From a virus: 59,919 nucleotides of DNA. Position numbers and translations under genes: made by a program. The stretch is from UHGV virus genome UHGV-0342645; one strand, given 5' to 3'. This document shows, piece by piece, positions 8,067 through 34,876 of this stretch. The notes under the pieces were generated by a model. The model ran no database searches and had not been told where the DNA came from. It saw nothing but the letters and a program-made list of their open reading frames with translations. Each line of letters begins with the position of its first letter. Within the stretch, counting starts at the first letter, position 1.

Positions 8067-8352
8067 ATGTAGTAATCTCCTTCAGCGTATCGCGCCAGTC
8101 CGCACCTTCAAGGTCAACTTCACCGCAGTAGCGACACTTATCACCATCATACAGCCATTCTTTAAGTTGTTCATATGCTTTAGGCTTACTATTATAACAG
8201 TGGACAACACCGTTAGCATCCACTGCAATGTGAGTAGCCCAAGGTGCCACAGGGATTTCCTGACCAAAAAACAGGACTTTGATTGCAGTTTTAGAATCGA
8301 CCGCAGGGATATCCGGTTTTTCTCGATTTAAATCCATTCCTAAATAAAGCAT
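8050..8352 (-). CDS. hypothetical protein, member of a 3-copy small paralog family (shares the ..AVD.NG.V.CY...P... VDLEG.DW..TL.E pattern with 8683..8964 and 29405..29659)
   Basis: 100 aa; motifs HIAVDANGVVHCYNSKP and GEVDLEGADWRDTLKE recur in the other two ORFs. Confidence 0.5.
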   Translation of the reverse strand: MLYLGMDLNREKPDIPAVDSKTAIKVLFFGQEIPVAPWATHIAVDANGVVHCYNSKPKAYEQLKEWLYDGDKCRYCGEVDLEGADWRDTLKEITTYVTEK

Positions 8353-11523: not shown

Positions 11524-11595
11524 GTTTTCTTATACACTGCTCATCATTACGGTGGGCAGTAATAAGCAAACTAACATTAACGAAAGGAGATATAC

Positions 11596-12169
11596 CATGT
11601 CTAAAGTAACTCACCGCGAACAGGACAAAATGCGCTACACCATGAAAACGAATGCACGCCGCGCCCTTAAGACCCGTTGGGGCCAGGTTGCACGCGATGC
11701 ACACGAACAGTTAATCCATCAGGACGATATCGGTTTTTACATCGTCGAAAAGGAAGTCCTTCAGGTTCTGCGCGACCATGAAAAAGCTCAAAAGCCGGAG
11801 CAGAAAGTCCCAGCACCGACCGCCGCGCCAGCTGCCCGCGTCTCGGTACTGCGCCCGATGGTAAATCCGGAAATCGTCAAAAGCTGCCTCGAAGCTCTGG
11901 AGCAGGAGGAAGAGAAAGATATGAAACACGCAAAAGCTGCCGCACCAAAACAGGATGCAAAAGCTGCTCGCTGTGATTTCAAAAATGGCGCTCGCAAGCC
12001 GCTCAAAGGAAAAACTGCCGAAGTGTGGGCAATGGGTGACAAACTTCTGAAGGAACTGGGCCGCACGCCGGAGCTGAAAGAAATGAAAGCTGCAATGCCT
12101 TCTTACAACGGGACAACTGTTGCCATTCAGTTCTACGCCTGGCGCAAATATAACGACCTGGACGCATAA
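11596..12169 (+). CDS. hypothetical protein
   Basis: Start refined to MSKVTHREQ, with AGGAGA RBS; 191 aa. Confidence 0.5.
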
Positions 12170-27699: not shown

Positions 27700-27827
27700 T
27701 AAGTTCTAAGCTTGATCAAAAAATATTTTTAAAAATGTTCAGATAAGGGGTTGCGTGTCACAAAATCCTTTGGTACATTTAACCCCGTTGGTAACAAACG
27801 AACCCATAACAATTCGGAGTGAAGAGA

Positions 27828-28628
27828 ATGAGCAACATTGAAGACAAAAAAGCTGCCGCCGCAGCCGCCGCTGCCGCTGCAAAATCTGCTAAACCTGCAA
27901 AGAAAGAAGCTACTGTGAATGATGCAGAAGCTAAGAAAGCCGCTGCCGCTGAAGCTGCACGCGTAGCAAAAGAGAAAAAAGAAGCAGAGAAAAAAGCTGC
28001 CGCTGAAAAGAAACAAGCTGAAATCCGCACTGAAGCGGAAAACAAATTTACCGCTCTTTCCCAGGCAGTTGAAACCGTGAAGTTTGCTTTATCTGGTATT
28101 ACCGATGAAAGCACTGTTGAACAGATTACGGAAGCAGAATCTAAGGGTTCTGAACAGCTGAAGCATTTAAAGAATGCTCTGAAAGAGCTGAAAGCAGTTG
28201 TTAAAAAATCCAAAGGTGAAGATCTGTCCGGTGCAGTGACTGCTGCTCAGAGCATGGTAGACGAACTGGATTCGTCTATTAAAGGCTTCAAAGACAAGAT
28301 CCGTGCTGCAAAACAGGCAGAAAAAGAAGCGGAAAAAGCACGCGCTAAAGAGCTCCGCGAGAAAGAAAAAGAAGCTAATCGTATGCCGGAACAGAACGGT
28401 GTTCGTCGTCCGCAACCGGAAACTTCCTGCGGTCGTGCCTGGGCTCTGATGGACCAGATTAGCGCTACGCTGGGTCAGCCTGCTCCGATCTCTTATGTTC
28501 TGAATCTGGCTGGTCGCCAGGGGCTGAACGAAGATACCGTTAAAACCCAGTATGCACGCTGGAAGAAATTTAATGGTGTAACTGGTCGCGTACCTGTACC
28601 AGTACCGGAAGCCCTGAACGGCTTGTAA
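27828..28628 (+). CDS. Ala/Lys-rich histone-H1-like basic protein
   Basis: Start refined to MSNIEDKK (RBS GGAGTGAAGAG). The first about 70 aa are poly-A followed by AKKxAAxEKK repeats (H1/AlgP-like KAAA repeats), with a predicted coiled-coil central region. Confidence 0.5.
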   Translation: MSNIEDKKAAAAAAAAAAKSAKPAKKEATVNDAEAKKAAAAEAARVAKEKKEAEKKAAAEKKQAEIRTEAENKFTALSQAVETVKFALSGITDESTVEQITEAESKGSEQLKHLKNALKELKAVVKKSKGEDLSGAVTAAQSMVDELDSSIKGFKDKIRAAKQAEKEAEKARAKELREKEKEANRMPEQNGVRRPQPETSCGRAWALMDQISATLGQPAPISYVLNLAGRQGLNEDTVKTQYARWKKFNGVTGRVPVPVPEALNGL

Positions 28629-28654
28629 TATCAAAACATATCACGTTATAATGA

Positions 28655-28681
28655 AGGCGCCCAATGAGGCGCTTTCTTTTT
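28655..28681 (+). terminator. intrinsic terminator (GGCGCC-CAATGA-GGCGCT-TTCTTTTT)
   Basis: Hairpin plus U-tract after the stop at 28628. Confidence 0.5.
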
Positions 28682-28697
28682 CACTAGAGGATTTAAG

Positions 28698-29405
28698 ATG
28701 AATATTAATCAACAAGCTCCCGAGTCTCGTTCTAAAGAAAACGATATGTATTTAGACGTGCATTCGGTATTCTCTACCATTCAGGGTGAAGGTCCGTTCT
28801 GCGGCCAGCCTGCTGTATTTGTGCGCCTTGCTGGATGTAACCTGCAATGCCCAGGCTGCGACACGGATTATACTGTTGGTCGTTCTCTTTACCACATTGT
28901 TGATATCATGCGTTTAATCGAAAGCCGTAAGCTGGAATCAGGCAATAGCACCTCACTTGTGGTTATTACTGGGGGTGAACCGTTCCGTCAGCAAATTAAC
29001 CCGCTTATTGAACAACTGTTATCGCGGGGCTATTTGGTGCAAATCGAAACTAATGGGTCTATGCCTTTACCTAAGAACTTTTCCCAGTTGCCTGTGATTG
29101 TATGTAGCCCCAAGACCTCAAAGATTCATCCTTCTGTGCTTTACCGCGCTAATGCATTTAAATATGTACTTAAAGCGTGCTGTGTAAACGTGGAAGATGG
29201 TTTACCCCTTCAAGCATTAGATCATCAAGCTACGCCATTTATCGCTAGACCTCCGAAGGGGTTCAAGGGTAAGATATATTTACAGCCAATGGACGAGCAG
29301 GATGAAGACCTTAACCACAGTAACATCCAAGCGGTTGTCCAAAGCTGTATGAAACACGGATACACGTTGCAGCTTCAGGTTCACAAATATATCGGGGTGG
29401 AATAA
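28698..29405 (+). CDS. queE: 7-carboxy-7-deazaguanine synthase (radical SAM)
   Basis: IQGEGPF..G.P..F.RLAGCNLQCPGCDT matches the QueE cluster-binding CxxxCxxC variant and the SAM-binding start; alternative start at 28743 (MYLDVH). Confidence 0.8.
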   Translation: MNINQQAPESRSKENDMYLDVHSVFSTIQGEGPFCGQPAVFVRLAGCNLQCPGCDTDYTVGRSLYHIVDIMRLIESRKLESGNSTSLVVITGGEPFRQQINPLIEQLLSRGYLVQIETNGSMPLPKNFSQLPVIVCSPKTSKIHPSVLYRANAFKYVLKACCVNVEDGLPLQALDHQATPFIARPPKGFKGKIYLQPMDEQDEDLNHSNIQAVVQSCMKHGYTLQLQVHKYIGVE

Positions 29406-29659
29406 TGCGTGTGTTAAGTCGGGTTGTGCATACTAAAGATGTTAATTTTTATGGTGTCACTTTAACCGTTCCAAGTCGAGTTGATTATCTGGCAGCTGAC
29501 AAGGATGGAAAGGTTTGTGGGTATGAAGTAGCTCCTCCAGAACTCAGTCATCGATTTGATAGATGGCTGCCAGCAGATCCGGGAGCTTACGAGTACGATG
29601 AAATAGCTTATGTAGACCTTGAAGGCTTAGACTGGACTCAAACATTAAGGGAGGTTTAA
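29405..29659 (+). CDS. hypothetical protein, third member of the small paralog family (YLAADKDGKVCGYEVAP ... YVDLEGLDWTQTLREV)
   Basis: 84 aa; located inside the deazaguanine island; shares motifs with 8050..8352 and 8683..8964 on the other strand. Confidence 0.45.
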   Translation: MRVLSRVVHTKDVNFYGVTLTVPSRVDYLAADKDGKVCGYEVAPPELSHRFDRWLPADPGAYEYDEIAYVDLEGLDWTQTLREV

Positions 29660-29872
29660 ATGATCACTTTAGAAGAAGCGAAACAGCATCAGGAAATGAT
29701 CACTGAGATTGTAGAAAAACTTAATTCTGCAATTGCTCACGCTACTATGCAGGGTGTACATGTTGAATTAGATATTAACCACGTTAGCACAATCGGAGCA
29801 CGCAATCATCCGATTGTGCTGTCAAATGTAACAATTAATCCTTGTGATATTAAAGGTGTAGAAGATGAATGA
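29660..29872 (+). CDS. hypothetical small protein (tandem paralog A)
   Basis: 70 aa; similar pattern to the next ORF (..L..AI..A...H.EL.I....). Confidence 0.4.
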   Translation: MITLEEAKQHQEMITEIVEKLNSAIAHATMQGVHVELDINHVSTIGARNHPIVLSNVTINPCDIKGVEDE

Positions 29873-30053
29873 AGAAACTGTAATTCTTATGCAGAAAATT
29901 CAACGTTTACAGGACGAGTTGAATGACGCTATTTGCCGCGCTGCATCCAAGAACATACATTCGGAGCTTGAAATACACCAGCGTAAGGTAACATCTGAAG
30001 CGGTGGTGGAACAAGTAGTCATTAACCTCAATATTAGTCTTAAAGGTTTCTAA
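29865..30053 (+). CDS. hypothetical small protein (tandem paralog B)
   Basis: 62 aa; overlaps the previous stop; shares helical pattern and length with 29660..29872. Confidence 0.4.
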   Translation: MNEETVILMQKIQRLQDELNDAICRAASKNIHSELEIHQRKVTSEAVVEQVVINLNISLKGF

Positions 30054-30054
30054 A

Positions 30055-30762
30055 ATGAATAAATTAGATAAACTGGTATTCCCTGTAAAAAATCATAACT
30101 CCGCCGTTGTAGTCCTGTCTGGCGGCCAGGACAGTGTGACCTGTTTAGGTCTTGCACTTAATAACTATGATAAGGTTTACGCTATTGGTTTTGCATACGG
30201 TCAACGTCATAACATTGAGCTGGCTTGTGCTAATCAAATTTGTAAAGAGCACGATGTCCCATTTGTTGTCTTTGAATTACCTGCTTTGAAACAGATTGGG
30301 AATAGCGCTTTAATCGGGGATGAAGGTGATGTTAACGAACATCACGAACAGCACAACAACCTTCCGGCAAGCTTTGTGCCAAACCGTAATGCTCTTTTCC
30401 TCACTACCGCGCACGCTTACGCACAGAAAGTTGGCGCTCGATATGTGGTTACGGGCGTTTGTGAAACAGACTATAGCGGTTATCCGGATTGCCGCCAGCA
30501 GTTTGTAAACTTGCTTGAAGCTACATTAAACGTTGGATATGAAACTGATATCCATTTTGTTACACCGCTTATGCGTTTAAATAAAGCGGAAACGTTTGAA
30601 CTGGCGGATAAGGTTGGTTTCTTAACCACAGTAATTGAACAGTCCCATACTTGCTATAACGGTGTCCGTCGCACTCTGCATGACTGGGGCTATGGTTGCG
30701 GTGAATGCCCTGCGTGCAAACTGCGTGCTAAAGGGTACAGCGAATTTATTAGCAAAGCTTAA
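30055..30762 (+). CDS. queC: 7-cyano-7-deazaguanine (preQ0) synthase
   Basis: PP-loop VVLSGGQDS near the N-terminus and C-terminal Zn-binding cysteines (CYNG...CGECPAC); 235 aa, canonical single-domain QueC with no glutamine-amidotransferase fusion. Confidence 0.85.
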   Translation: MNKLDKLVFPVKNHNSAVVVLSGGQDSVTCLGLALNNYDKVYAIGFAYGQRHNIELACANQICKEHDVPFVVFELPALKQIGNSALIGDEGDVNEHHEQHNNLPASFVPNRNALFLTTAHAYAQKVGARYVVTGVCETDYSGYPDCRQQFVNLLEATLNVGYETDIHFVTPLMRLNKAETFELADKVGFLTTVIEQSHTCYNGVRRTLHDWGYGCGECPACKLRAKGYSEFISKA

Positions 30763-30882
30763 TCTTACCGCGAAAACCGCACCGCTAGCGCATTGTTTAG
30801 GGTGCGGGAACCCAACTATACTACTAAAGCTTTTAAACCCAACAACCAGCGAATACCGCTGTTAAAACTGGAGAACAAAAGT

Positions 30883-31362
30883 ATGAAATTTATCGTCGCT
30901 TATTTGGCTGCAATTACATTCGTAAATCTGGGCTTTTCCTACCTCCCAATGCTTAACACGCCTCTTGGCGTAGTCCCCATGATGGCTTTCTTTGTAGGTA
31001 TTATCTTTGTGTTGCGTGACTACGCACAGCGTAACGCTGGCAAAGGCGTTATCCCTGCAATGATTGTGGGTTGCATCCTTAGCTGGGTATTTGGGGACCC
31101 TGCTGTTGTAGTTGCATCCGTTGCATCCTTTGCTCTTAGCGAGTTTGCGGACTATGCGGTATACACGATTACTAAGAAGCCGTTTCATCAACGTGTATTT
31201 ATCAGCTCTTTGGTAGCTGTACCAATTGACTCCATTGTGTTCTTAAGTATTATAGGTATTGTTAATCCGGGATCAATGGTAGCAATGAGCTTAAGTAAGT
31301 TCACAGCATCTGCCATCCTTTGGGTTGTTTACGAAGTTCATTCACGTACAGCGAGAGCGTAA
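30883..31362 (+). CDS. YhhQ/QueT (Vut/DUF165)-family membrane protein, putative 7-deazapurine (preQ0/preQ1) precursor transporter
   Basis: Start refined to MKFIVAYLAAI (RBS GGAGAACAAAAG). Multi-TM protein; the ASFALSEFADYAVY and LRDY motifs resemble DUF165/YhhQ conserved segments. Confidence 0.55.
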   Translation: MKFIVAYLAAITFVNLGFSYLPMLNTPLGVVPMMAFFVGIIFVLRDYAQRNAGKGVIPAMIVGCILSWVFGDPAVVVASVASFALSEFADYAVYTITKKPFHQRVFISSLVAVPIDSIVFLSIIGIVNPGSMVAMSLSKFTASAILWVVYEVHSRTARA

Positions 31363-31363
31363 A

Positions 31364-31954
31364 ATGAAAGATAATTTGAATAAAATTTGGCATCAACACG
31401 ACGGTAAAGGAATGCCTATTTTTCTTCGTAATGAGAAGTTTGAAGTTCGTTTGCGCAACGGCACACACGTTAAGAATCTATTACATGGATGGGATTGGGC
31501 TATGGAAGGGCGTTCAGCTATGGATGAGAATAGCCCTTATAAAGTTCAAGATATTATAGCCTGGCGATATATTGTTGCGGATGATTACGTCAAACAAGCC
31601 GGCGAAAACACTCGCTCCGGAGTGTGCCATCAATCTTCTTCTGGAATAAGCATAAGTAATACATTTAATGGTGCAGTTTTTACGAAATATGAACCATCTA
31701 AAATTCCCATGAATAAATATCAGAAAATTATTTATGGTAAAGATCAAAACGGCAATGTTGTAAAATGCATCGTGGACGTGTATGATGTCTTGGAAGCTTG
31801 GAAAACGACTAACCCAGCTTTACAACATTTGATTAAAAAGGCGTTGCAGCCTGGCGAACGCGGTCATAAAAGTCTGGTAGAAGACTTGAAAGATATTATT
31901 GCATCTGCACAGCGTGCGTTAGAAATTGAACAGTCTAAAGAGGTGTTAAAATGA
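31364..31954 (+). CDS. hypothetical protein embedded in the deazaguanine island
   Basis: About 196 aa from MKDNLNKIWHQ; no recognisable motif; flanked by the transporter and queD. Confidence 0.45.
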   Translation: MKDNLNKIWHQHDGKGMPIFLRNEKFEVRLRNGTHVKNLLHGWDWAMEGRSAMDENSPYKVQDIIAWRYIVADDYVKQAGENTRSGVCHQSSSGISISNTFNGAVFTKYEPSKIPMNKYQKIIYGKDQNGNVVKCIVDVYDVLEAWKTTNPALQHLIKKALQPGERGHKSLVEDLKDIIASAQRALEIEQSKEVLK

Positions 31955-32484
31955 GCTATACAGTAATTCGTTCACATGAAATTTGTGCTGGACATCGTGT
32001 TGTAGGACATGAAAGCAAGTGTCGTCATCTTCACGGTCACAACTATAAGTTTCACTTTAAGGTTGCACCGAAGCGCGTAGAAAGCGAAAACTACATCCCG
32101 GGCGCGAAAGGTTTCTCCGTTGAAGGTAAACTGGACGATGTCGGGCGCGTTATTGATTTTAGTGTGGTTAAGACTACGCTCTGTCAGTGGCTGGAAGACA
32201 ACTGGGATCACAAGTTCCTGCACTGGGAAAATGATCCTCTCATTAAAGGCCTCGATGCTCTTTTACGTCACGACGCTGCTATAGGGTATGACGTGGTAGA
32301 GCAAGAGGACGGATCCCATTTCTTTGACTCACTGGTAGCGCTACCGTTCAACCCAACTGCGGAGAACTTAGCTGCATATATGGTTAACGTAATTGGACCG
32401 CAACTACTTGACGGACATGGTGTTCAACTTGTAGAATGCACCATCGAAGAAACTTCGAAATGCCACGTAAATTATAGCCTGTAA
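31951..32484 (+). CDS. queD: 6-carboxy-5,6,7,8-tetrahydropterin synthase
   Basis: CxxxHGH zinc/active-site motif (CRHLHGHNY) and a second HH; 177 aa. Confidence 0.8.
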   Translation: MSYTVIRSHEICAGHRVVGHESKCRHLHGHNYKFHFKVAPKRVESENYIPGAKGFSVEGKLDDVGRVIDFSVVKTTLCQWLEDNWDHKFLHWENDPLIKGLDALLRHDAAIGYDVVEQEDGSHFFDSLVALPFNPTAENLAAYMVNVIGPQLLDGHGVQLVECTIEETSKCHVNYSL

Positions 32485-32519
32485 TATGACCACATTAACA
32501 AACAAGGAAACTGCAAACC

Positions 32520-33101
32520 ATGCGTAAAGATACTGTAAAAATTGCTATTAGTTCATTACTTTTAAATATTGAAGGTTCAACAGAACTCCGTCCTGGGTTG
32601 GAAGAGACTCCTGAACGTGTCGCTAAAGCATACCAGACGTGGTTCGGCGGTTACGATGTAGATATCGCTGGATTGTTTAAAACCTTTGAGGATGGGGCTG
32701 AAAACACCAATGAAATGGTCATTGCCCGTGATATTCCTGTATACAGTCATTGTGAGCATCACATGGCTCCTATTATCGGTCATGCTGTTGTGGGTTATGT
32801 TCCCAATGGGAAGATCGTTGGGCTCAGTAAACTGTCTCGCGTAGTTGATGCTTTTAGCCGTCGCTTGCAAGTCCAAGAGCGTCTAACTAACCAGATTGCA
32901 GACGCTATCCAGGAGCATTTAAACCCGAAAGCTGTATGCGTTTATATTGACGCCAAACATATGTGCATGGAGTCGCGCGGTGTTAAGCAGGTATGCGGCA
33001 GCTCTACCATTACCAAAGCGTTCCGGGGCGCTACAGAACTGGAGCATGGTAGCGATATTGGTAAAGAATGGCGCCGGGAGTTCCTTGAAGCTTGTAAATA
33101 A
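32520..33101 (+). CDS. folE: GTP cyclohydrolase I
   Basis: SHCEHHM zinc-binding motif; 193 aa; first step of the preQ0 pathway. Confidence 0.85.
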   Translation: MRKDTVKIAISSLLLNIEGSTELRPGLEETPERVAKAYQTWFGGYDVDIAGLFKTFEDGAENTNEMVIARDIPVYSHCEHHMAPIIGHAVVGYVPNGKIVGLSKLSRVVDAFSRRLQVQERLTNQIADAIQEHLNPKAVCVYIDAKHMCMESRGVKQVCGSSTITKAFRGATELEHGSDIGKEWRREFLEACK

Positions 33102-33120
33102 TAGATAGCTTTACAGATCA

Positions 33121-33158
33121 AGCCCATATCGGTCATAATACTGGTATGGGCTTTTTAG
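33121..33158 (+). terminator. terminator-like hairpin (AGCCCATA-17 nt loop-TATGGGCT-TTTTAG)
   Basis: 8-bp stem and U-tract after the folE stop. Confidence 0.45.
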
Positions 33159-33171
33159 TTGGTATAAGACA

Positions 33172-33729
33172 ATGGAAATTATCACAAGAGCTGAAGCAAA
33201 AGAAAGAGGTTTGAAATATTATTTTACTGGTAAGCCTTGTGCGAAAGGTCATCTTTCTGAAAGAAAGACTGTAGATGGCTATTGCATTACTTGTGACAGA
33301 GAAGCACGAAAGAAAAGAATGCGTATTTACAATAAAACAGAAGCTGCAAGGAATGCTATTAAGAGATATCATAAGTCACAGAAAGGAAAAGAAGCCCTTC
33401 AACGTTCAAAAGCTGCTTATAATTCTACTGAGAAAGGTAAAGAACAAAATAAAGAAAGGCTGAAACGCTGGGCTAAGACAGATTACGGTAAAGCTAGATC
33501 AAGATTACATTCCCTTGAAGTGCATAAGAAAAGGTCTTTAAGAATCCCTGCGTGGTCTGAAAAAGAACAAATTGAATTGTTCTACGCTAACTGCCCGGAT
33601 GGGATGGAGGTTGATCATATTATACCTCTTTGCGGTAAAAGAGTTAGTGGACTTCACGTCCTTAGTAACCTACAATACTTATCTATTGAAGAAAACAGAT
33701 CTAAGCGTAATAAATTTGAGGTGGAATAA
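33172..33729 (+). CDS. HNH homing endonuclease
   Basis: C-terminal HNH motif EVDHIIPLCGK...NLQYLSIEENRSKRN; the N-terminus has CxxC...CxxC; inserted between folE and dpdA. Confidence 0.7.
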   Translation: MEIITRAEAKERGLKYYFTGKPCAKGHLSERKTVDGYCITCDREARKKRMRIYNKTEAARNAIKRYHKSQKGKEALQRSKAAYNSTEKGKEQNKERLKRWAKTDYGKARSRLHSLEVHKKRSLRIPAWSEKEQIELFYANCPDGMEVDHIIPLCGKRVSGLHVLSNLQYLSIEENRSKRNKFEVE

Positions 33730-34649
33730 TGCATCTGTTTGTTGCTGCGGTATATACCAACGGCTATAAAGCTGGTCAACAACGATATGAAAAGTTAAAC
33801 GATCGGGAAAAGGACATCGTTAATAGCCTACCAAATATTTTGGAATCATACCACTACGTTGGACGTCAGAAGTATGTTGATCAAATGCGTGCGGACGGGG
33901 CTAAAGTGTTTCTCGACTCCGGAGCATTCTCCGCGCACTCGTTAGGTGCTCACATTGATATTGTCGAATATTGCGAATACATCAAACGCAATAAAGATAT
34001 CCTGCGCGTAGAAGATGGTGCTGTAATGGCGTCAGTGCTTGATGGTATCGGTGATCCACTGCAAACCTACCGTAACCAGCTTGAAATGGAAGCACGCGGT
34101 GCTAAACCGTTACCTTGCTTTCACTTTGGGGAGGACTTCCGCTATCTCGAATATTACATGAAGAACTACGAATATATCACCATCGGGGGCATGGTAGGGC
34201 GTTCCACGGACACGCTTAAAACTTGGCTTGACCGCATGTGGGATAAATATATTTGCGATGGTAGCGGTCGCCCTAAGATTAAGCTTCATGCATTTGGTAT
34301 TACGTCCACTACCATTATGGAACGTTACCCGTGGTATAGCTGTGACTCATCCTCCTGGATTCAAGCGGCAGCGTTTGGAAGTGTGGTTACTCCTCCGTGG
34401 GGCCCGATGCGCGTATCTGACAAGTCACCGGACCGACACCATTTCGGTAAGCACGTTTCAACGCTAACTGAAATTGAACAAGACGCTGTCCTTAAATACC
34501 TTGAGCAAAACGGTTTCACTTACGAACGTTTATCAACAATCTATGAATCACGTGCTGCCTTCAACTTATGGGCGTATGGTGTAATTGCTGCAAACATTAA
34601 CGCTACCCATGACGGCACATTCCGTGATCGTGTAATGGAGTTGTTCTGA
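33729..34649 (+). CDS. dpdA: DpdA-like DNA 7-deazaguanine transglycosylase (TGT superfamily)
   Basis: 306 aa; LDSGAFS resembles the TGT LDSGGFQ substrate-binding motif. Co-located with queCDE/folE, as in phage deazaguanine DNA-modification clusters. Confidence 0.65.
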   Translation: MHLFVAAVYTNGYKAGQQRYEKLNDREKDIVNSLPNILESYHYVGRQKYVDQMRADGAKVFLDSGAFSAHSLGAHIDIVEYCEYIKRNKDILRVEDGAVMASVLDGIGDPLQTYRNQLEMEARGAKPLPCFHFGEDFRYLEYYMKNYEYITIGGMVGRSTDTLKTWLDRMWDKYICDGSGRPKIKLHAFGITSTTIMERYPWYSCDSSSWIQAAAFGSVVTPPWGPMRVSDKSPDRHHFGKHVSTLTEIEQDAVLKYLEQNGFTYERLSTIYESRAAFNLWAYGVIAANINATHDGTFRDRVMELF

Positions 34650-34876
34650 TGGCTAACTTAAGAAGACCAAAAGGTAAACGTAAATATACTCACACAGGCG
34701 TAAGAATTAATTACTACGGTGAAAACAGAGTAGTATTCCTCCACAAGACACCTAAGCAGTGGCAGGATCCGTCAGGCACATGGTTTAATGCACAAGGGAA
34801 ACAAATGGGACTTTATGGATACCCTCCAACCTGTGAATTAGATTTAACCACAATTAGAGCAATCGAGGATCGCTAA
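34649..34876 (+). CDS. hypothetical small protein
   Basis: 75 aa; translationally coupled (ATGA overlaps). Confidence 0.4.
   Translation: MANLRRPKGKRKYTHTGVRINYYGENRVVFLHKTPKQWQDPSGTWFNAQGKQMGLYGYPPTCELDLTTIRAIEDR

What the first reader, a model, noticed from the sequence alone, without database searches (positions are those of the whole stretch)
28698..34649. 7-deazaguanine DNA-hypermodification island with unassigned genes
queE, queC, queD and folE give a complete GTP-to-preQ0 pathway, and they sit next to a TGT-superfamily DpdA-like transglycosylase. In phages this signature means guanine in the virion DNA is replaced by a 7-deazaguanine derivative, an anti-restriction modification. QueC is the plain 235-aa form with no amidotransferase fusion, so dPreQ0 is the minimal expected product. 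The island also contains four proteins of unknown function that could carry out further tailoring of the base: 29405-30053 (84, 70 and 62 aa) and 31364-31954 (about 196 aa). An HNH homing endonuclease is inserted between folE and dpdA.
Basis: partly seen in the sequence, partly recalled or inferred. Interest (0 to 1): 0.8.

Follow-up and report, generated by a model that had tools for sequence, protein, structure and literature searches.

The report
Known Seuratvirus dPreQ0 DNA-modification gene island
This is the well-studied gene cluster that Seuratvirus coliphages such as CAjan use to swap about 30% of their DNA guanines for the modified base preQ0 and so resist restriction enzymes, making it real and correctly read but ordinary.

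Summary
The window is a complete, mosaic Seuratvirus (Queuovirinae) coliphage genome. These are queE, queC, queD, folE, a DpdA transglycosylase, an HNH gene between folE and dpdA, and four small unassigned ORFs.

DpdA is 95.4% identical to CAjan DpdA and 68% identical to phage 9g DpdA. Knocking out CAjan dpdA abolishes dPreQ0. All nine published active-site residues are kept, and the model's best solved-structure matches are archaeosine tRNA-guanine transglycosylases. No amidotransferase or QueF is present, so dPreQ0 is the expected product. Sites matching CAjan's GA and GGC motifs cover 28.5% of the window's Gs.

The four unknowns are unlikely tailoring enzymes. Three have homologues in CAjan, where dPreQ0 was the only one of five assayed 7-deazaguanine nucleosides detected. 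The fourth is a variable-slot member of a widespread small-protein family.

The HNH behaves as a homing endonuclease. It is sporadic among relatives and flanked by a sharply diverged first 120 nt of dpdA.

Verdict: confirmed, already known, low interest.

The parts
28623..28676 (+). Promoter-like site (TTGTAA-18-TATAAT) followed by a GC-rich hairpin with a T-run, just upstream of queE. Possible start of the island transcription unit.
   Evidence: Consensus scan only. Comparable promoter and terminator features are annotated at the same place in SA80RD. Function not shown.
28698..29405 (+). queE, 7-carboxy-7-deazaguanine (CDG) synthase, radical SAM, 235 aa.
   Evidence: CX3CX2C at residues 47-54. 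NCBIfam QueE equivalogs reach E 4e-28 to 4e-21 but are below trusted cutoffs. 99.1% identical to CAjan gp45.
29405..29659 (+). u84, an 84-aa protein of unknown function sitting in a variable cargo slot after queE.
   Evidence: phrog_1972, E 6e-22. Absent from this slot in CAjan and replaced by other ORFs in SA80RD and ECP2304. Homologues occur in 123 phage records, including jumbo phages. A paralogue lies at 8074-8277 on the - strand of the window.
29660..29872 (+). u70, a 70-aa protein of unknown function, syntenic between queE and queC across Seuratvirus.
   Evidence: Found in 40 phage records. The Hafnia phage yong3 copy (45% identical) occupies the same slot. 34% homologues in Nonanavirus PJ16 lie next to a recombination-associated gene, not que genes. 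No Pfam match. The 'radical SAM domain-containing protein' label in RefSeq and PHROG is not backed by any domain match here.
29865..30053 (+). u62, a 62-aa protein of unknown function. Weak tandem paralogue of u70.
   Evidence: Found in 29 records, all from Seuratvirus-like phages. Pairwise similarity to u70 has E 8e-5 over 26 aa.
30055..30762 (+). queC, preQ0 (7-cyano-7-deazaguanine) synthase, plain 235-aa form.
   Evidence: Pfam QueC E 9e-75 covering residues 17-230. TIGR00364 scores 242 bits against a cutoff of 150. SGGQDS PP-loop and C-terminal CxxCxxC motifs are present. 96.6% identical to CAjan QueC. No Gat domain is found anywhere in the window.
30883..31362 (+). Short (159 aa) VUT/YhhQ-family membrane protein, a putative preQ0 transporter.
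   Evidence: Pfam Vut_1 E 3.9e-5 (24.5 bits, cutoff 27.2). TIGR00697 'queuosine precursor transporter' E 1.4e-4. Many homologues, down to about 37% identity, carry PF02592 and are named YhhQ or queuosine precursor transporter. Several hydrophobic segments are present. 98.7% identical to CAjan gp41. Pairwise comparison with E. coli YhhQ is not significant.
31364..31954 (+). u196, a two-domain protein of unknown function. It has a small N-terminal beta domain, a disordered linker and a highly conserved C-terminal domain (about residues 116-190).
   Evidence: AF2 model. The C-domain has 18 invariant residues across 48 sequences. It occurs in 706 phage records and at least 2,485 cluster representatives, mostly without que genes. 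It is also found inside the Nonagvirus island between queE and gat-queC. There is no Pfam, PDB-sequence or fold match.
31951..32484 (+). queD, 6-carboxytetrahydropterin (CPH4) synthase, 177 aa.
   Evidence: Pfam PTPS E 7e-22. TIGR03367 E 1.9e-17, below its cutoff. CxxxHGHxY motif at residue 24. 78% identical to CAjan QueD.
32520..33101 (+). folE, GTP cyclohydrolase I, 193 aa.
   Evidence: Pfam E 1.8e-62. TIGR00063 scores 188.8 bits against a cutoff of 181.6.
33120..33153 (+). 14-bp-stem terminator-like hairpin inside a roughly 66-nt intergenic block that is invariant in five phages. It forms the left edge of the variable slot that holds the HNH.
   Evidence: SA80RD annotates a terminator and a promoter at this place.
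33172..33729 (+). Free-standing HNH homing endonuclease, 185 aa. Its stop codon overlaps the dpdA start (TAATG).
   Evidence: DH-x-N-x-N motif at residue 148. PHROG 'endonuclease VII' E 5e-16; Pfam HNH only E 0.22. Present at 97% identity or more in only 5 phage records. 44-46% homologues lie beside dpdA in Nonagvirus phages, and related proteins in Pseudomonas phages NP1 and PaMx25; the NP1 gene is annotated 'homing endonuclease'. The slot is empty or holds unrelated small ORFs in SA80RD, WildeMaa and CAjan.
33729..34649 (+). dpdA (DpdA1 subfamily), DNA guanine transglycosylase that exchanges G for preQ0 in double-stranded DNA.
   Evidence: 95.4% identical to CAjan DpdA. D63, S64, F67, D105, H132, G153, G154, F189 and D206 are all conserved (residues from PMC7544227). 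68% identical to 9g DpdA. The AF2 model's top PDB matches are ArcTGT 1j2b and 1iq8 (E 5e-4, probability 1.0), followed by bacterial and human TGT. PHROG 887 E 1e-94.
33729..33848 (+). Diverged 5' tract of dpdA linked to HNH presence. Putative co-conversion or cleavage-immunity tract.
   Evidence: 42 of 79-92 nucleotide differences from HNH-less relatives fall in the first 120 nt. All amino-acid differences except P182A (13 of 13-14) lie in residues 2-36. HNH-bearing ECP2304 shares the window's allele.

Best explanation
The region is the Seuratvirus 7-deazaguanine DNA-modification island, embedded in the replication module of a complete coliphage genome.

Proposed mechanism:
1. FolE converts GTP to dihydroneopterin triphosphate.
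2. QueD makes CPH4, QueE makes CDG, and QueC makes preQ0.
3. DpdA, a TGT-fold transglycosylase, removes guanine post-replicatively from double-stranded phage DNA and inserts preQ0. In CAjan the sites are GA and GGC.
4. The result is dPreQ0 at roughly 30% of G positions, which blunts type I and II restriction.

The short YhhQ-like membrane protein probably supplements supply by importing or salvaging preQ0.

The four unassigned ORFs are not needed to explain the chemistry. They are most likely unrelated early or replication-module cargo, not tailoring enzymes.

The HNH between folE and dpdA is a selfish homing endonuclease. Its target most likely lies in the 5' end of dpdA in HNH-less relatives.

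Shown here: gene content, homology, fold, motifs, distribution and site density. Inferred from close relatives: the chemical product, site specificity and anti-restriction effect. Inferred only: YhhQ transport and HNH homing.
For: - Island gene content and family matches.
- 52 phage records carry the island, and relatives are classified as Queuovirinae; Seuratvirus.
- Protein identity to CAjan: DpdA 95.4%, QueE 99.1%, QueC 96.6%, YhhQ-like 98.7%, FolE 86.7%, QueD 78%.
- All nine DpdA pocket and catalytic residues are conserved (PMC7544227).
- The DpdA model's best structural matches are ArcTGT and TGT.
- No Gat domain or QueF is present.
- CAjan experiments: dPreQ0 at 70,628 per 10^6 nt (about 32% of G), none in the dpdA knockout, 12-fold lower in the queC knockout, GA and GGC motifs, and restriction protection lost in the knockout (PMC6884629, PMC7544227).
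- The window has 63,377 GA+GGC sites per 10^6 nt, equal to 28.5% of G.
- 9g DpdA alone inserts preQ0 into plasmid DNA in E. coli, so no phage accessory protein is required (PMC6884629).
- Seuratvirus phages resist type I and II restriction-modification systems in vivo (PMC8594841).
- YhhQ family membership through homologues.
- HNH sporadic distribution and flanking divergence tract.
Against: - No chemistry was done on this phage. The product and its level are extrapolated from relatives at 78-99% identity.
- DpdA has no Pfam TGT match and only a sub-threshold match to the bacterial DpdA model. The C-terminal third of the AF2 model is low confidence.
- The YhhQ-like protein is below curated thresholds and is not detectably similar to E. 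coli YhhQ in a pairwise comparison.
- The published CAjan mass spectrometry was targeted at five nucleosides, so a minor unknown derivative is not formally excluded.
- u70 and the u196 C-domain keep syntenic positions inside the island even in divergent yong3. A C-domain protein also sits in the Nonagvirus island. This leaves room for an accessory role.
Confidence: 0.9

Rival explanations
1. One or more of the unassigned ORFs (u84, u70, u62, u196) converts preQ0 or dPreQ0 into a further, possibly new, 7-deazaguanine derivative. On this reading the virion base is not dPreQ0.
For: - The ORFs lie inside the island and are co-oriented and tightly packed with the que genes.
- u70 and the u196 C-domain are syntenic across Seuratvirus, including yong3.
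- A protein with the same C-domain sits between queE and gat-queC in Nonagvirus.
- The C-domain has many invariant charged residues.
Against: - CAjan carries u70, u62 and u196 homologues. Its DNA showed dPreQ0 as the only one of the five assayed 7-deazaguanine nucleosides (PMC7544227). The level, about 32% of G, is similar to the 28.5% of G in GA or GGC context counted in this window, which leaves little room for a second product.
- u84 is absent from CAjan's island and belongs to a multi-copy family found in 123 phage records, including jumbo phages.
- The u196 C-domain is in 706 phage records, and those inspected lack que genes nearby.
- None of the four matches any enzyme family.
- Three of them are 62-84 aa.
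Confidence: 0.05
2. The island mainly serves tRNA or metabolite manipulation. On this reading it boosts host queuosine or preQ0 pools to reprogram translation, and DNA modification is not the main role.
For: - FolE, QueD, QueE and QueC are the same enzymes bacteria use for queuosine in tRNA.
- A YhhQ-like transporter is present.
- Many database records still label DpdA 'queuine tRNA-ribosyltransferase'.
Against: - DpdA is 95% identical to the CAjan enzyme, whose knockout removes dPreQ0 from DNA (PMC6884629).
- 9g DpdA (68% identical) inserts preQ0 into plasmid DNA.
- No QueF, QueA or QueG was detected in the island, and there are no tRNA genes in the window.
- There is no preQ1 riboswitch.
Confidence: 0.03
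3. The island is present but functionally impaired in this phage. For example, the HNH insertion and the altered dpdA 5' end might reduce DpdA expression or activity, giving little or no modification.
For: - The HNH sits directly upstream of dpdA, downstream of a terminator-like hairpin.
- 13 amino-acid changes cluster in DpdA residues 2-36.
Against: - All ORFs are intact.
- The HNH stop overlaps the dpdA start, which is compatible with translational coupling.
- The same HNH-plus-dpdA allele is kept at 98-99.7% identity in independently isolated viable phages.
- None of the changes touches the published active-site residues.
Confidence: 0.03

Closest known systems
Escherichia phage CAjan (Seuratvirus cajan) dPreQ0 cluster, gp35-gp45
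   Same: The gene order is the same: queE, u70, u62, queC, yhhQ-like, u196, queD, folE, dpdA, u75, clamp, polymerase. Protein identities are 78-99% for the pathway enzymes, 95.4% for DpdA and 55-94% for the unknown ORFs. The product (dPreQ0), the GA/GGC motifs and the anti-restriction role were established experimentally in CAjan (PMC6884629, PMC7544227).
   Different: The window has u84 after queE, which CAjan's island lacks. It lacks CAjan gp39 between u196 and queD. It carries an HNH endonuclease where CAjan has the unrelated 68-aa gp36. It also has a diverged first 120 nt of dpdA.
Escherichia phage ECP2304, with KS_A3, SHIN8 and KS_S4 (HNH-bearing Seuratvirus phages)
   Same: ECP2304 has the HNH in the folE-dpdA slot at 98.4% identity. 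KS_A3, SHIN8 and KS_S4 carry it at 99.5%. ECP2304 also has the same dpdA allele at 99.7% identity.
   Different: ECP2304 has a 99-aa variant in the u84 slot (46% identical). It has an extra 89-aa ORF before queD, and its u196 is only 66% identical. Genome-wide the window is a mosaic, with different best relatives for each third.
Enterobacteria phage 9g and other Nonagvirus dG+ (archaeosine) clusters
   Same: These share the core FolE, QueD, QueE and DpdA1 (68% identical DpdA) in the replication module. A protein with the u196 C-domain also lies inside the island.
   Different: Nonagvirus has Gat-QueC, whose QueC part is only 29% identical, and therefore makes dG+. It has no YhhQ-like gene, and no u70 or u62 homologue was found in the Nonagvirus island examined (PMC6884629).
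Bacterial dpd system (DpdA/DpdB/DpdC, Salmonella Montevideo type)
   Same: It uses a TGT-superfamily enzyme to insert preQ0 into DNA.
   Different: The window's DpdA scores only 17 bits (E 0.002) on the bacterial DpdA equivalog model, whose cutoff is 200. No DpdB- or DpdC-like protein was found among the island ORFs. Reported bacterial modification levels are below 0.1% of G, against about 30% for DpdA1 phages (PMC10516641).

Membership tests
DpdA (phage DpdA1 subfamily) / TGT superfamily | TIM-barrel tRNA-guanine-transglycosylase fold | tested here: met
   In the AF2 model, residue blocks 1-200 have mean pLDDT 70-94. The top Foldseek PDB matches are ArcTGT 1j2b and 1iq8 (E 4.8e-4 and 8.8e-4, probability 1.00), followed by bacterial, human and mouse TGT. 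The C-terminal 100 residues are low confidence.
DpdA (phage DpdA1 subfamily) / TGT superfamily | Two catalytic aspartates and the preQ0/guanine pocket residues defined for CAjan DpdA | tested here: met
   D63, S64, F67, D105, H132, G153, G154, F189 and D206 are all present at the same positions (residue list from PMC7544227). G217, whose G217E change abolishes dPreQ0 in phage HK243, is invariant (10.1101/2025.10.29.685425).
DpdA (phage DpdA1 subfamily) / TGT superfamily | Significant match to curated sequence models (Pfam TGT PF01702, NCBIfam DpdA NF041059) | tested here: not met
   There is no Pfam match even at E up to 10. NF041059 gives E 0.002 and 17 bits against a cutoff of 200. A profile of 45 homologues finds no PDB sequence. 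These models describe tRNA TGTs and bacterial DpdA, not DpdA1, so the relation is visible only by fold and through PHROG 887 (E 1e-94).
DpdA (phage DpdA1 subfamily) / TGT superfamily | Close homology to experimentally validated DNA-modifying members | tested here: met
   95.4% identical to CAjan DpdA and 68.3% identical to 9g DpdA over the full length.
DpdA (phage DpdA1 subfamily) / TGT superfamily | Exchange of guanine for preQ0 in double-stranded DNA | not testable with these tools
   Needs LC-MS/MS of virion DNA or an in vitro or in vivo insertion assay.
preQ0 biosynthesis pathway (FolE, QueD, QueE, QueC) | All four enzymes present and intact | tested here: met
   FolE and QueC exceed NCBIfam equivalog cutoffs. 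QueD exceeds the Pfam cutoff and has the CxxxHGHxY motif. QueE has CX3CX2C, and its best matches are QueE models (E 4e-28), although below equivalog cutoffs.
Tailoring enzymes beyond preQ0 (Gat-QueC, ArcS, QueF/QueF-L, DpdC) | Presence of an amidotransferase, nitrile reductase or nitrile hydratase homologue | tested here: not met
   The Gat domain of Nonagvirus Gat-QueC has no significant tblastn match in the window. The only QueF-model hits are weak and fall on FolE, a related T-fold enzyme. No island ORF matches any such family. DpdL, DpdM and DpdN were not searched with dedicated models.
VUT / COG1738 (YhhQ) queuosine-precursor transporters | Match to Pfam Vut_1 (PF02592) or TIGR00697 | tested here: inconclusive
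   The protein itself is sub-threshold: 24.5 bits against 27.2, and 21.7 bits against 50.95. It is not significantly similar to E. coli YhhQ in a pairwise comparison. However, many of its 118 homologues, from 99% down to about 37% identity, carry PF02592, and several are named YhhQ or queuosine precursor transporter. It is shorter (159 aa) than E. coli YhhQ (221 aa).
VUT / COG1738 (YhhQ) queuosine-precursor transporters | preQ0 uptake activity | not testable with these tools
   Needs complementation of an E. coli preQ0-auxotroph yhhQ mutant fed exogenous preQ0.
Free-standing HNH homing endonucleases | HNH catalytic motif | tested here: met
   The sequence DHIIPLCGKRVSGLHVLSNLQYLSIEEN lies at residues 148-175. 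PHROG 1035 'endonuclease VII' gives E 5e-16. Pfam HNH is only E 0.22.
Free-standing HNH homing endonucleases | Sporadic presence at a fixed intergenic site in otherwise syntenic genomes, with diverged flanking sequence | tested here: met
   It is present at 97% identity or more in 5 phage records, while 52 records carry the island. The slot has a precise left edge after an invariant terminator block and a right edge at the dpdA ATG. The first 120 nt of dpdA are about 35% diverged from HNH-less alleles, against about 5% for the rest of the gene.
Free-standing HNH homing endonucleases | Site-specific cleavage of the HNH-less allele and homing in co-infection | not testable with these tools
   Needs in vitro cleavage and mixed-infection experiments.

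The most novel reading that the evidence does not exclude
The conserved roughly 65-aa C-terminal domain of u196 is an uncharacterised, very widespread phage domain. It has at least 2,485 cluster representatives, 18 invariant residues and no Pfam or fold match. A protein carrying it is retained inside the 7-deazaguanine islands of both Seuratvirus and Nonagvirus. It, or the syntenic u70/u62 pair, might be an accessory factor of the modification system. Possible roles include tuning GTP or preQ0 flux, targeting or timing DpdA, or sparing host DNA. The alternative is that these genes are unrelated replication-module cargo.
Probability: 0.1. Interest if true: 0.5.

Novelty: already known. Interest (0 to 1): 0.15.

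Why it matters
7-deazaguanine replacement of G is a phage counter-defence against restriction enzymes. It has also become a target for host glycosylases that recognise the modified base (10.1101/2025.10.29.685425). This window adds another, mosaic Seuratvirus genome carrying the canonical dPreQ0 island, so it does not change what is known.

Two modest points remain of interest:
- The HNH endonuclease appears to home into the dpdA 5' region. That would make the modification gene itself a battleground between related phages.
- The island-resident proteins u70, u62 and the u196 C-domain protein are conserved and still lack a function.

Tried and rejected
1. Sequence-level proof that DpdA is a TGT. 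Pfam, a PDB phmmer search and a PDB profile search all gave nothing. Only the fold search and PHROG showed the relationship.

2. Function of u196.
- Pfam, NCBIfam and PHROG gave only 'unknown'.
- An AF2 model followed by Foldseek-PDB gave no match below E 0.36.
- The afdb50 library was unavailable.
- A Pfam scan of ten larger proteins containing the C-domain found no informative fusion partner.
- A remembered resemblance of the C-domain to DUF3310 could not be confirmed. Pfam gave no hit, and the literature assigns DUF3310 no function. It is kept only as a lead.

3. u70 and u62. There is no family assignment. The RefSeq and PHROG label 'radical SAM domain-containing protein' for u70 is unsupported by any domain search.

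4. Regulatory RNA. There is no Rfam match at gathering thresholds in the window and no preQ1 riboswitch. The only sub-threshold hit in the island is sraL at E 0.41, judged to be chance.

5. tRNA genes: none.

6. Direct similarity of the phage YhhQ-like protein to E. coli YhhQ was not significant. Family membership rests on intermediates.

7. Promoter and terminator scans are not enriched over shuffles, apart from two strong hairpins.

Full report
**What the window is.** The 59,919-bp window has no tRNA genes and no Rfam match at gathering thresholds. It carries a full siphovirus gene set:
- terminase and tail genes;
- primase, RusA-like resolvase, dUTPase, RNase H and ligase;
- Sak4-like annealing protein, SSB, Cas4-like exonuclease and helicase;
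- clamp and DNA polymerase.

Megablast of the finding region hits 52 phage records. Nearly all are Escherichia phages, and those inspected are classified Queuovirinae; Seuratvirus, at 90-94% identity. The other two-thirds of the window have different best relatives: CSP1 and PLYYY01 at about 93.5% over about 82%, and KurtStettler at 93.2% over 95%. The window is therefore a complete, mosaic Seuratvirus genome that is not identical to any record in the collection. Its size fits the 56-61 kb reported for the genus (PMC8594841).

**Checking the observation.**
- QueC matches Pfam QueC at E 9e-75 and exceeds the NCBIfam equivalog cutoff.
- FolE matches at E 1.8e-62 and also exceeds its equivalog cutoff.
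- QueD matches PTPS at E 7e-22 and has the CxxxHGHxY motif.
- QueE has the radical-SAM CX3CX2C motif, and its best matches are QueE models (E 4e-28), although below the trusted cutoffs.
- The 84-, 70-, 62- and 196-aa ORFs exist and have no Pfam or NCBIfam match.
- The HNH ORF has a clear DH...N...N motif and matches the PHROG 'endonuclease VII' family at E 5e-16.

**DpdA.** There is no Pfam TGT match even at E up to 10. The bacterial DpdA model gives 17 bits against a cutoff of 200. Neither the protein nor a 45-sequence profile finds any PDB sequence. Three other lines settle the question.
1. The protein is 95.4% identical to CAjan DpdA and 68% identical to 9g DpdA. CAjan dpdA is required for dPreQ0 in DNA, and 9g DpdA alone inserts preQ0 into plasmid DNA in E. 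coli (PMC6884629).
2. All nine residues that Kot et al. assign to the preQ0/guanine pocket and the two catalytic aspartates are present at identical positions (PMC7544227).
3. An AlphaFold2 model has mean block pLDDT of 70-94 over residues 1-200 and a poor C-terminus. Its best solved-structure matches are archaeosine tRNA-guanine transglycosylase 1j2b and 1iq8 (E 5e-4, probability 1.0), followed by bacterial and eukaryotic TGTs.

It is a DpdA1-type enzyme.

**Expected product.** QueC is the plain form. The Gat half of a Nonagvirus Gat-QueC has no significant match anywhere in the window. The only QueF-model signal is the weak T-fold cross-hit on FolE. dPreQ0 is therefore the expected base, as measured in CAjan at 70,628 per 10^6 nt, about 32% of G (PMC6884629). 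CAjan modifies G in GA and GGC contexts (PMC7544227). The window contains 63,377 such sites per 10^6 nt, or 28.5% of all G, which matches the measured level in the relative. Seuratvirus phages are resistant to type I and II restriction systems in vivo (PMC8594841). dPreQ0 phages are in turn targeted by host Dag glycosylases and escape through dpdA mutation (10.1101/2025.10.29.685425).

**The missed gene.** The ORF at 30883-31362 has several hydrophobic segments. It gives sub-threshold matches to Pfam Vut_1 (E 3.9e-5) and to the 'queuosine precursor transporter' model (E 1.4e-4). It is 98.7% identical to CAjan gp41, annotated 'putative preQ0 transporter'. It is not detectably similar to E. coli YhhQ in a pairwise comparison. 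However, many of its 118 database homologues, down to about 37% identity, carry PF02592, and several are named YhhQ or queuosine precursor transporter. It is a short VUT-family protein, and its preQ0 transport activity is inferred. It is absent from the Nonagvirus island examined.

**The four unassigned ORFs.**
- *u84* sits in a variable slot. It is absent from that slot in CAjan, replaced by an unrelated 53-aa ORF in SA80RD, and only 46% identical in ECP2304. Its family (phrog_1972) occurs in 123 phage records, including jumbo phages and Klebsiella phages. Several Seuratvirus genomes hold multiple copies, and the window has a paralogue at 8074-8277 on the - strand.
- *u70* is conserved between queE and queC in all Seuratvirus phages examined, including the divergent Hafnia phage yong3. 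Its 34% homologues in Nonanavirus lie beside a recombination gene, with no que genes nearby.
- *u62* is restricted to Seuratvirus-like phages and is a weak tandem paralogue of u70.
- *u196* is a two-domain protein. Its N-terminal domain and linker evolve fast (55% identity to CAjan). Its C-terminal roughly 65 residues are extremely conserved, with 18 invariant positions in 48 diverse sequences.

The u196 C-domain occurs in 706 phage records. The non-Queuovirinae loci inspected (Pseudomonas phage Itty13, Providencia phage Kokobel1) have no que genes nearby. It also occurs in at least 2,485 cluster representatives, alone or fused to varied partners. yong3 keeps only the C-domain at the same slot. 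Nonagvirus has a 252-aa protein ending in this domain between queE and gat-queC. No Pfam, PDB-sequence or fold match was found, and no informative fusion partner.

Three observations argue that none of the four is a tailoring enzyme. CAjan has u70, u62 and u196 homologues, yet dPreQ0 was the only one of five assayed 7-deazaguanine nucleosides detected, at a level close to the share of G in GA/GGC context counted here. 9g DpdA works without phage accessories. The proteins lack any enzyme signature. The recurrent presence of the C-domain protein inside two genera's islands leaves a small possibility of an accessory role.

**The HNH.** The slot between folE and dpdA has sharp edges. On the left is a roughly 66-nt block that is invariant in five phages and contains a 14-bp-stem terminator-like hairpin (33120-33153). 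On the right is the dpdA start codon. The slot contents differ between phages:
- about 17 nt in SA80RD;
- an unrelated 77-aa ORF in WildeMaa;
- an unrelated 68-aa ORF in CAjan;
- the 185-aa HNH in the window and ECP2304.

The HNH is found at 97% identity or more in only five phage records. Homologues at 44-46% identity lie beside dpdA in Nonagvirus phages SE1, JenP1 and FritzHoffmann. Related proteins occur in Pseudomonas phages NP1 and PaMx25; the NP1 gene is annotated 'homing endonuclease'. In dpdA, 42 of the 79-92 nucleotide differences from HNH-less relatives fall in the first 120 nt. All but one of the amino-acid differences (13 of 13-14) fall in residues 2-36. The HNH-bearing ECP2304 shares the window's allele. 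This is the pattern expected of a homing endonuclease whose target is the 5' end of dpdA, with a co-converted or cleavage-immune flank. The enzymatic activity itself is inferred.

**Comparison with what is known, and verdict.** The island is the published signature of Seuratvirus. It has the same gene order as CAjan gp35-gp45, the same enzymes and the same predicted product. The differences are limited to cargo in three variable slots (after queE, before queD, and before dpdA) and to the HNH-linked dpdA allele. The finding is real and correctly interpreted but already known. The residual interest lies in the HNH-dpdA homing relationship and in the uncharacterised but very widespread u196 C-domain.

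Noticed in passing
window 33729-33848: The first 120 nt of dpdA are about 35% diverged from HNH-less Seuratvirus alleles, against about 5% for the rest of the gene. All amino-acid changes but one (P182A) lie in residues 2-36. The allele is shared with HNH-bearing ECP2304. This looks like a homing-endonuclease co-conversion or immunity tract.
   Followed up: yes
window 33094-33160: A roughly 66-nt intergenic block after folE is invariant in five phages, although the flanking coding sequence varies. It includes a 14-bp-stem terminator-like hairpin and an embedded promoter-like site.
   Followed up: partly
window 34649-34876: A 75-aa basic protein is wedged between dpdA and the sliding-clamp gene, with overlapping start and stop codons on both sides. 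It is 100% identical at the protein level in all four close relatives (only 4-5 nucleotide differences) and recognisably conserved in yong3. Its function is unknown (phrog_38388).
   Followed up: partly
window 31709-31951 (u196 residues 116-196); L008 3491-4246: A roughly 65-aa domain (consensus ...VDVYDVL.AW.V.NPALQHLIKKALQPGERGHK...DL.DI.ASA.RA.E) has no Pfam entry. It has at least 2,485 cluster representatives and occurs in 706 phage records, stand-alone or fused at either end of larger proteins. A copy also lies inside the Nonagvirus dG+ island.
   Followed up: partly
window 8074-8277 (- strand): A paralogue of u84 lies elsewhere in the genome (33% identity, E 1e-6). Related Seuratvirus genomes hold 2-3 copies of this small-protein family.
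   Followed up: partly
window 27819-28628 and 11552-12169: A 269-aa protein lies just upstream of queE, with an Ala/Lys-rich low-complexity N-terminal half. It is annotated 'FtrA domain' in CAjan and SA80RD, and no Pfam family reaches its cutoff here. It has a weak paralogue at 11552-12169, and both match phrog_21588.
   Followed up: no
window 30055-30762 vs L008 4251-5666: Seuratvirus QueC is only 29% identical to the QueC half of Nonagvirus Gat-QueC, whereas DpdA is 68% identical between the genera. The two genera therefore seem to carry QueC genes of different origin, not a simple domain gain or loss.
   Followed up: no
whole window: The genome is a mosaic. The best relative differs by region: CSP1/PLYYY01 for 1-25 kb, ECP2304 for the island, and KurtStettler for 35-60 kb. 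Each is about 93% identical over 82-95% of the segment, which suggests a species not in the phage collection used.
   Followed up: partly
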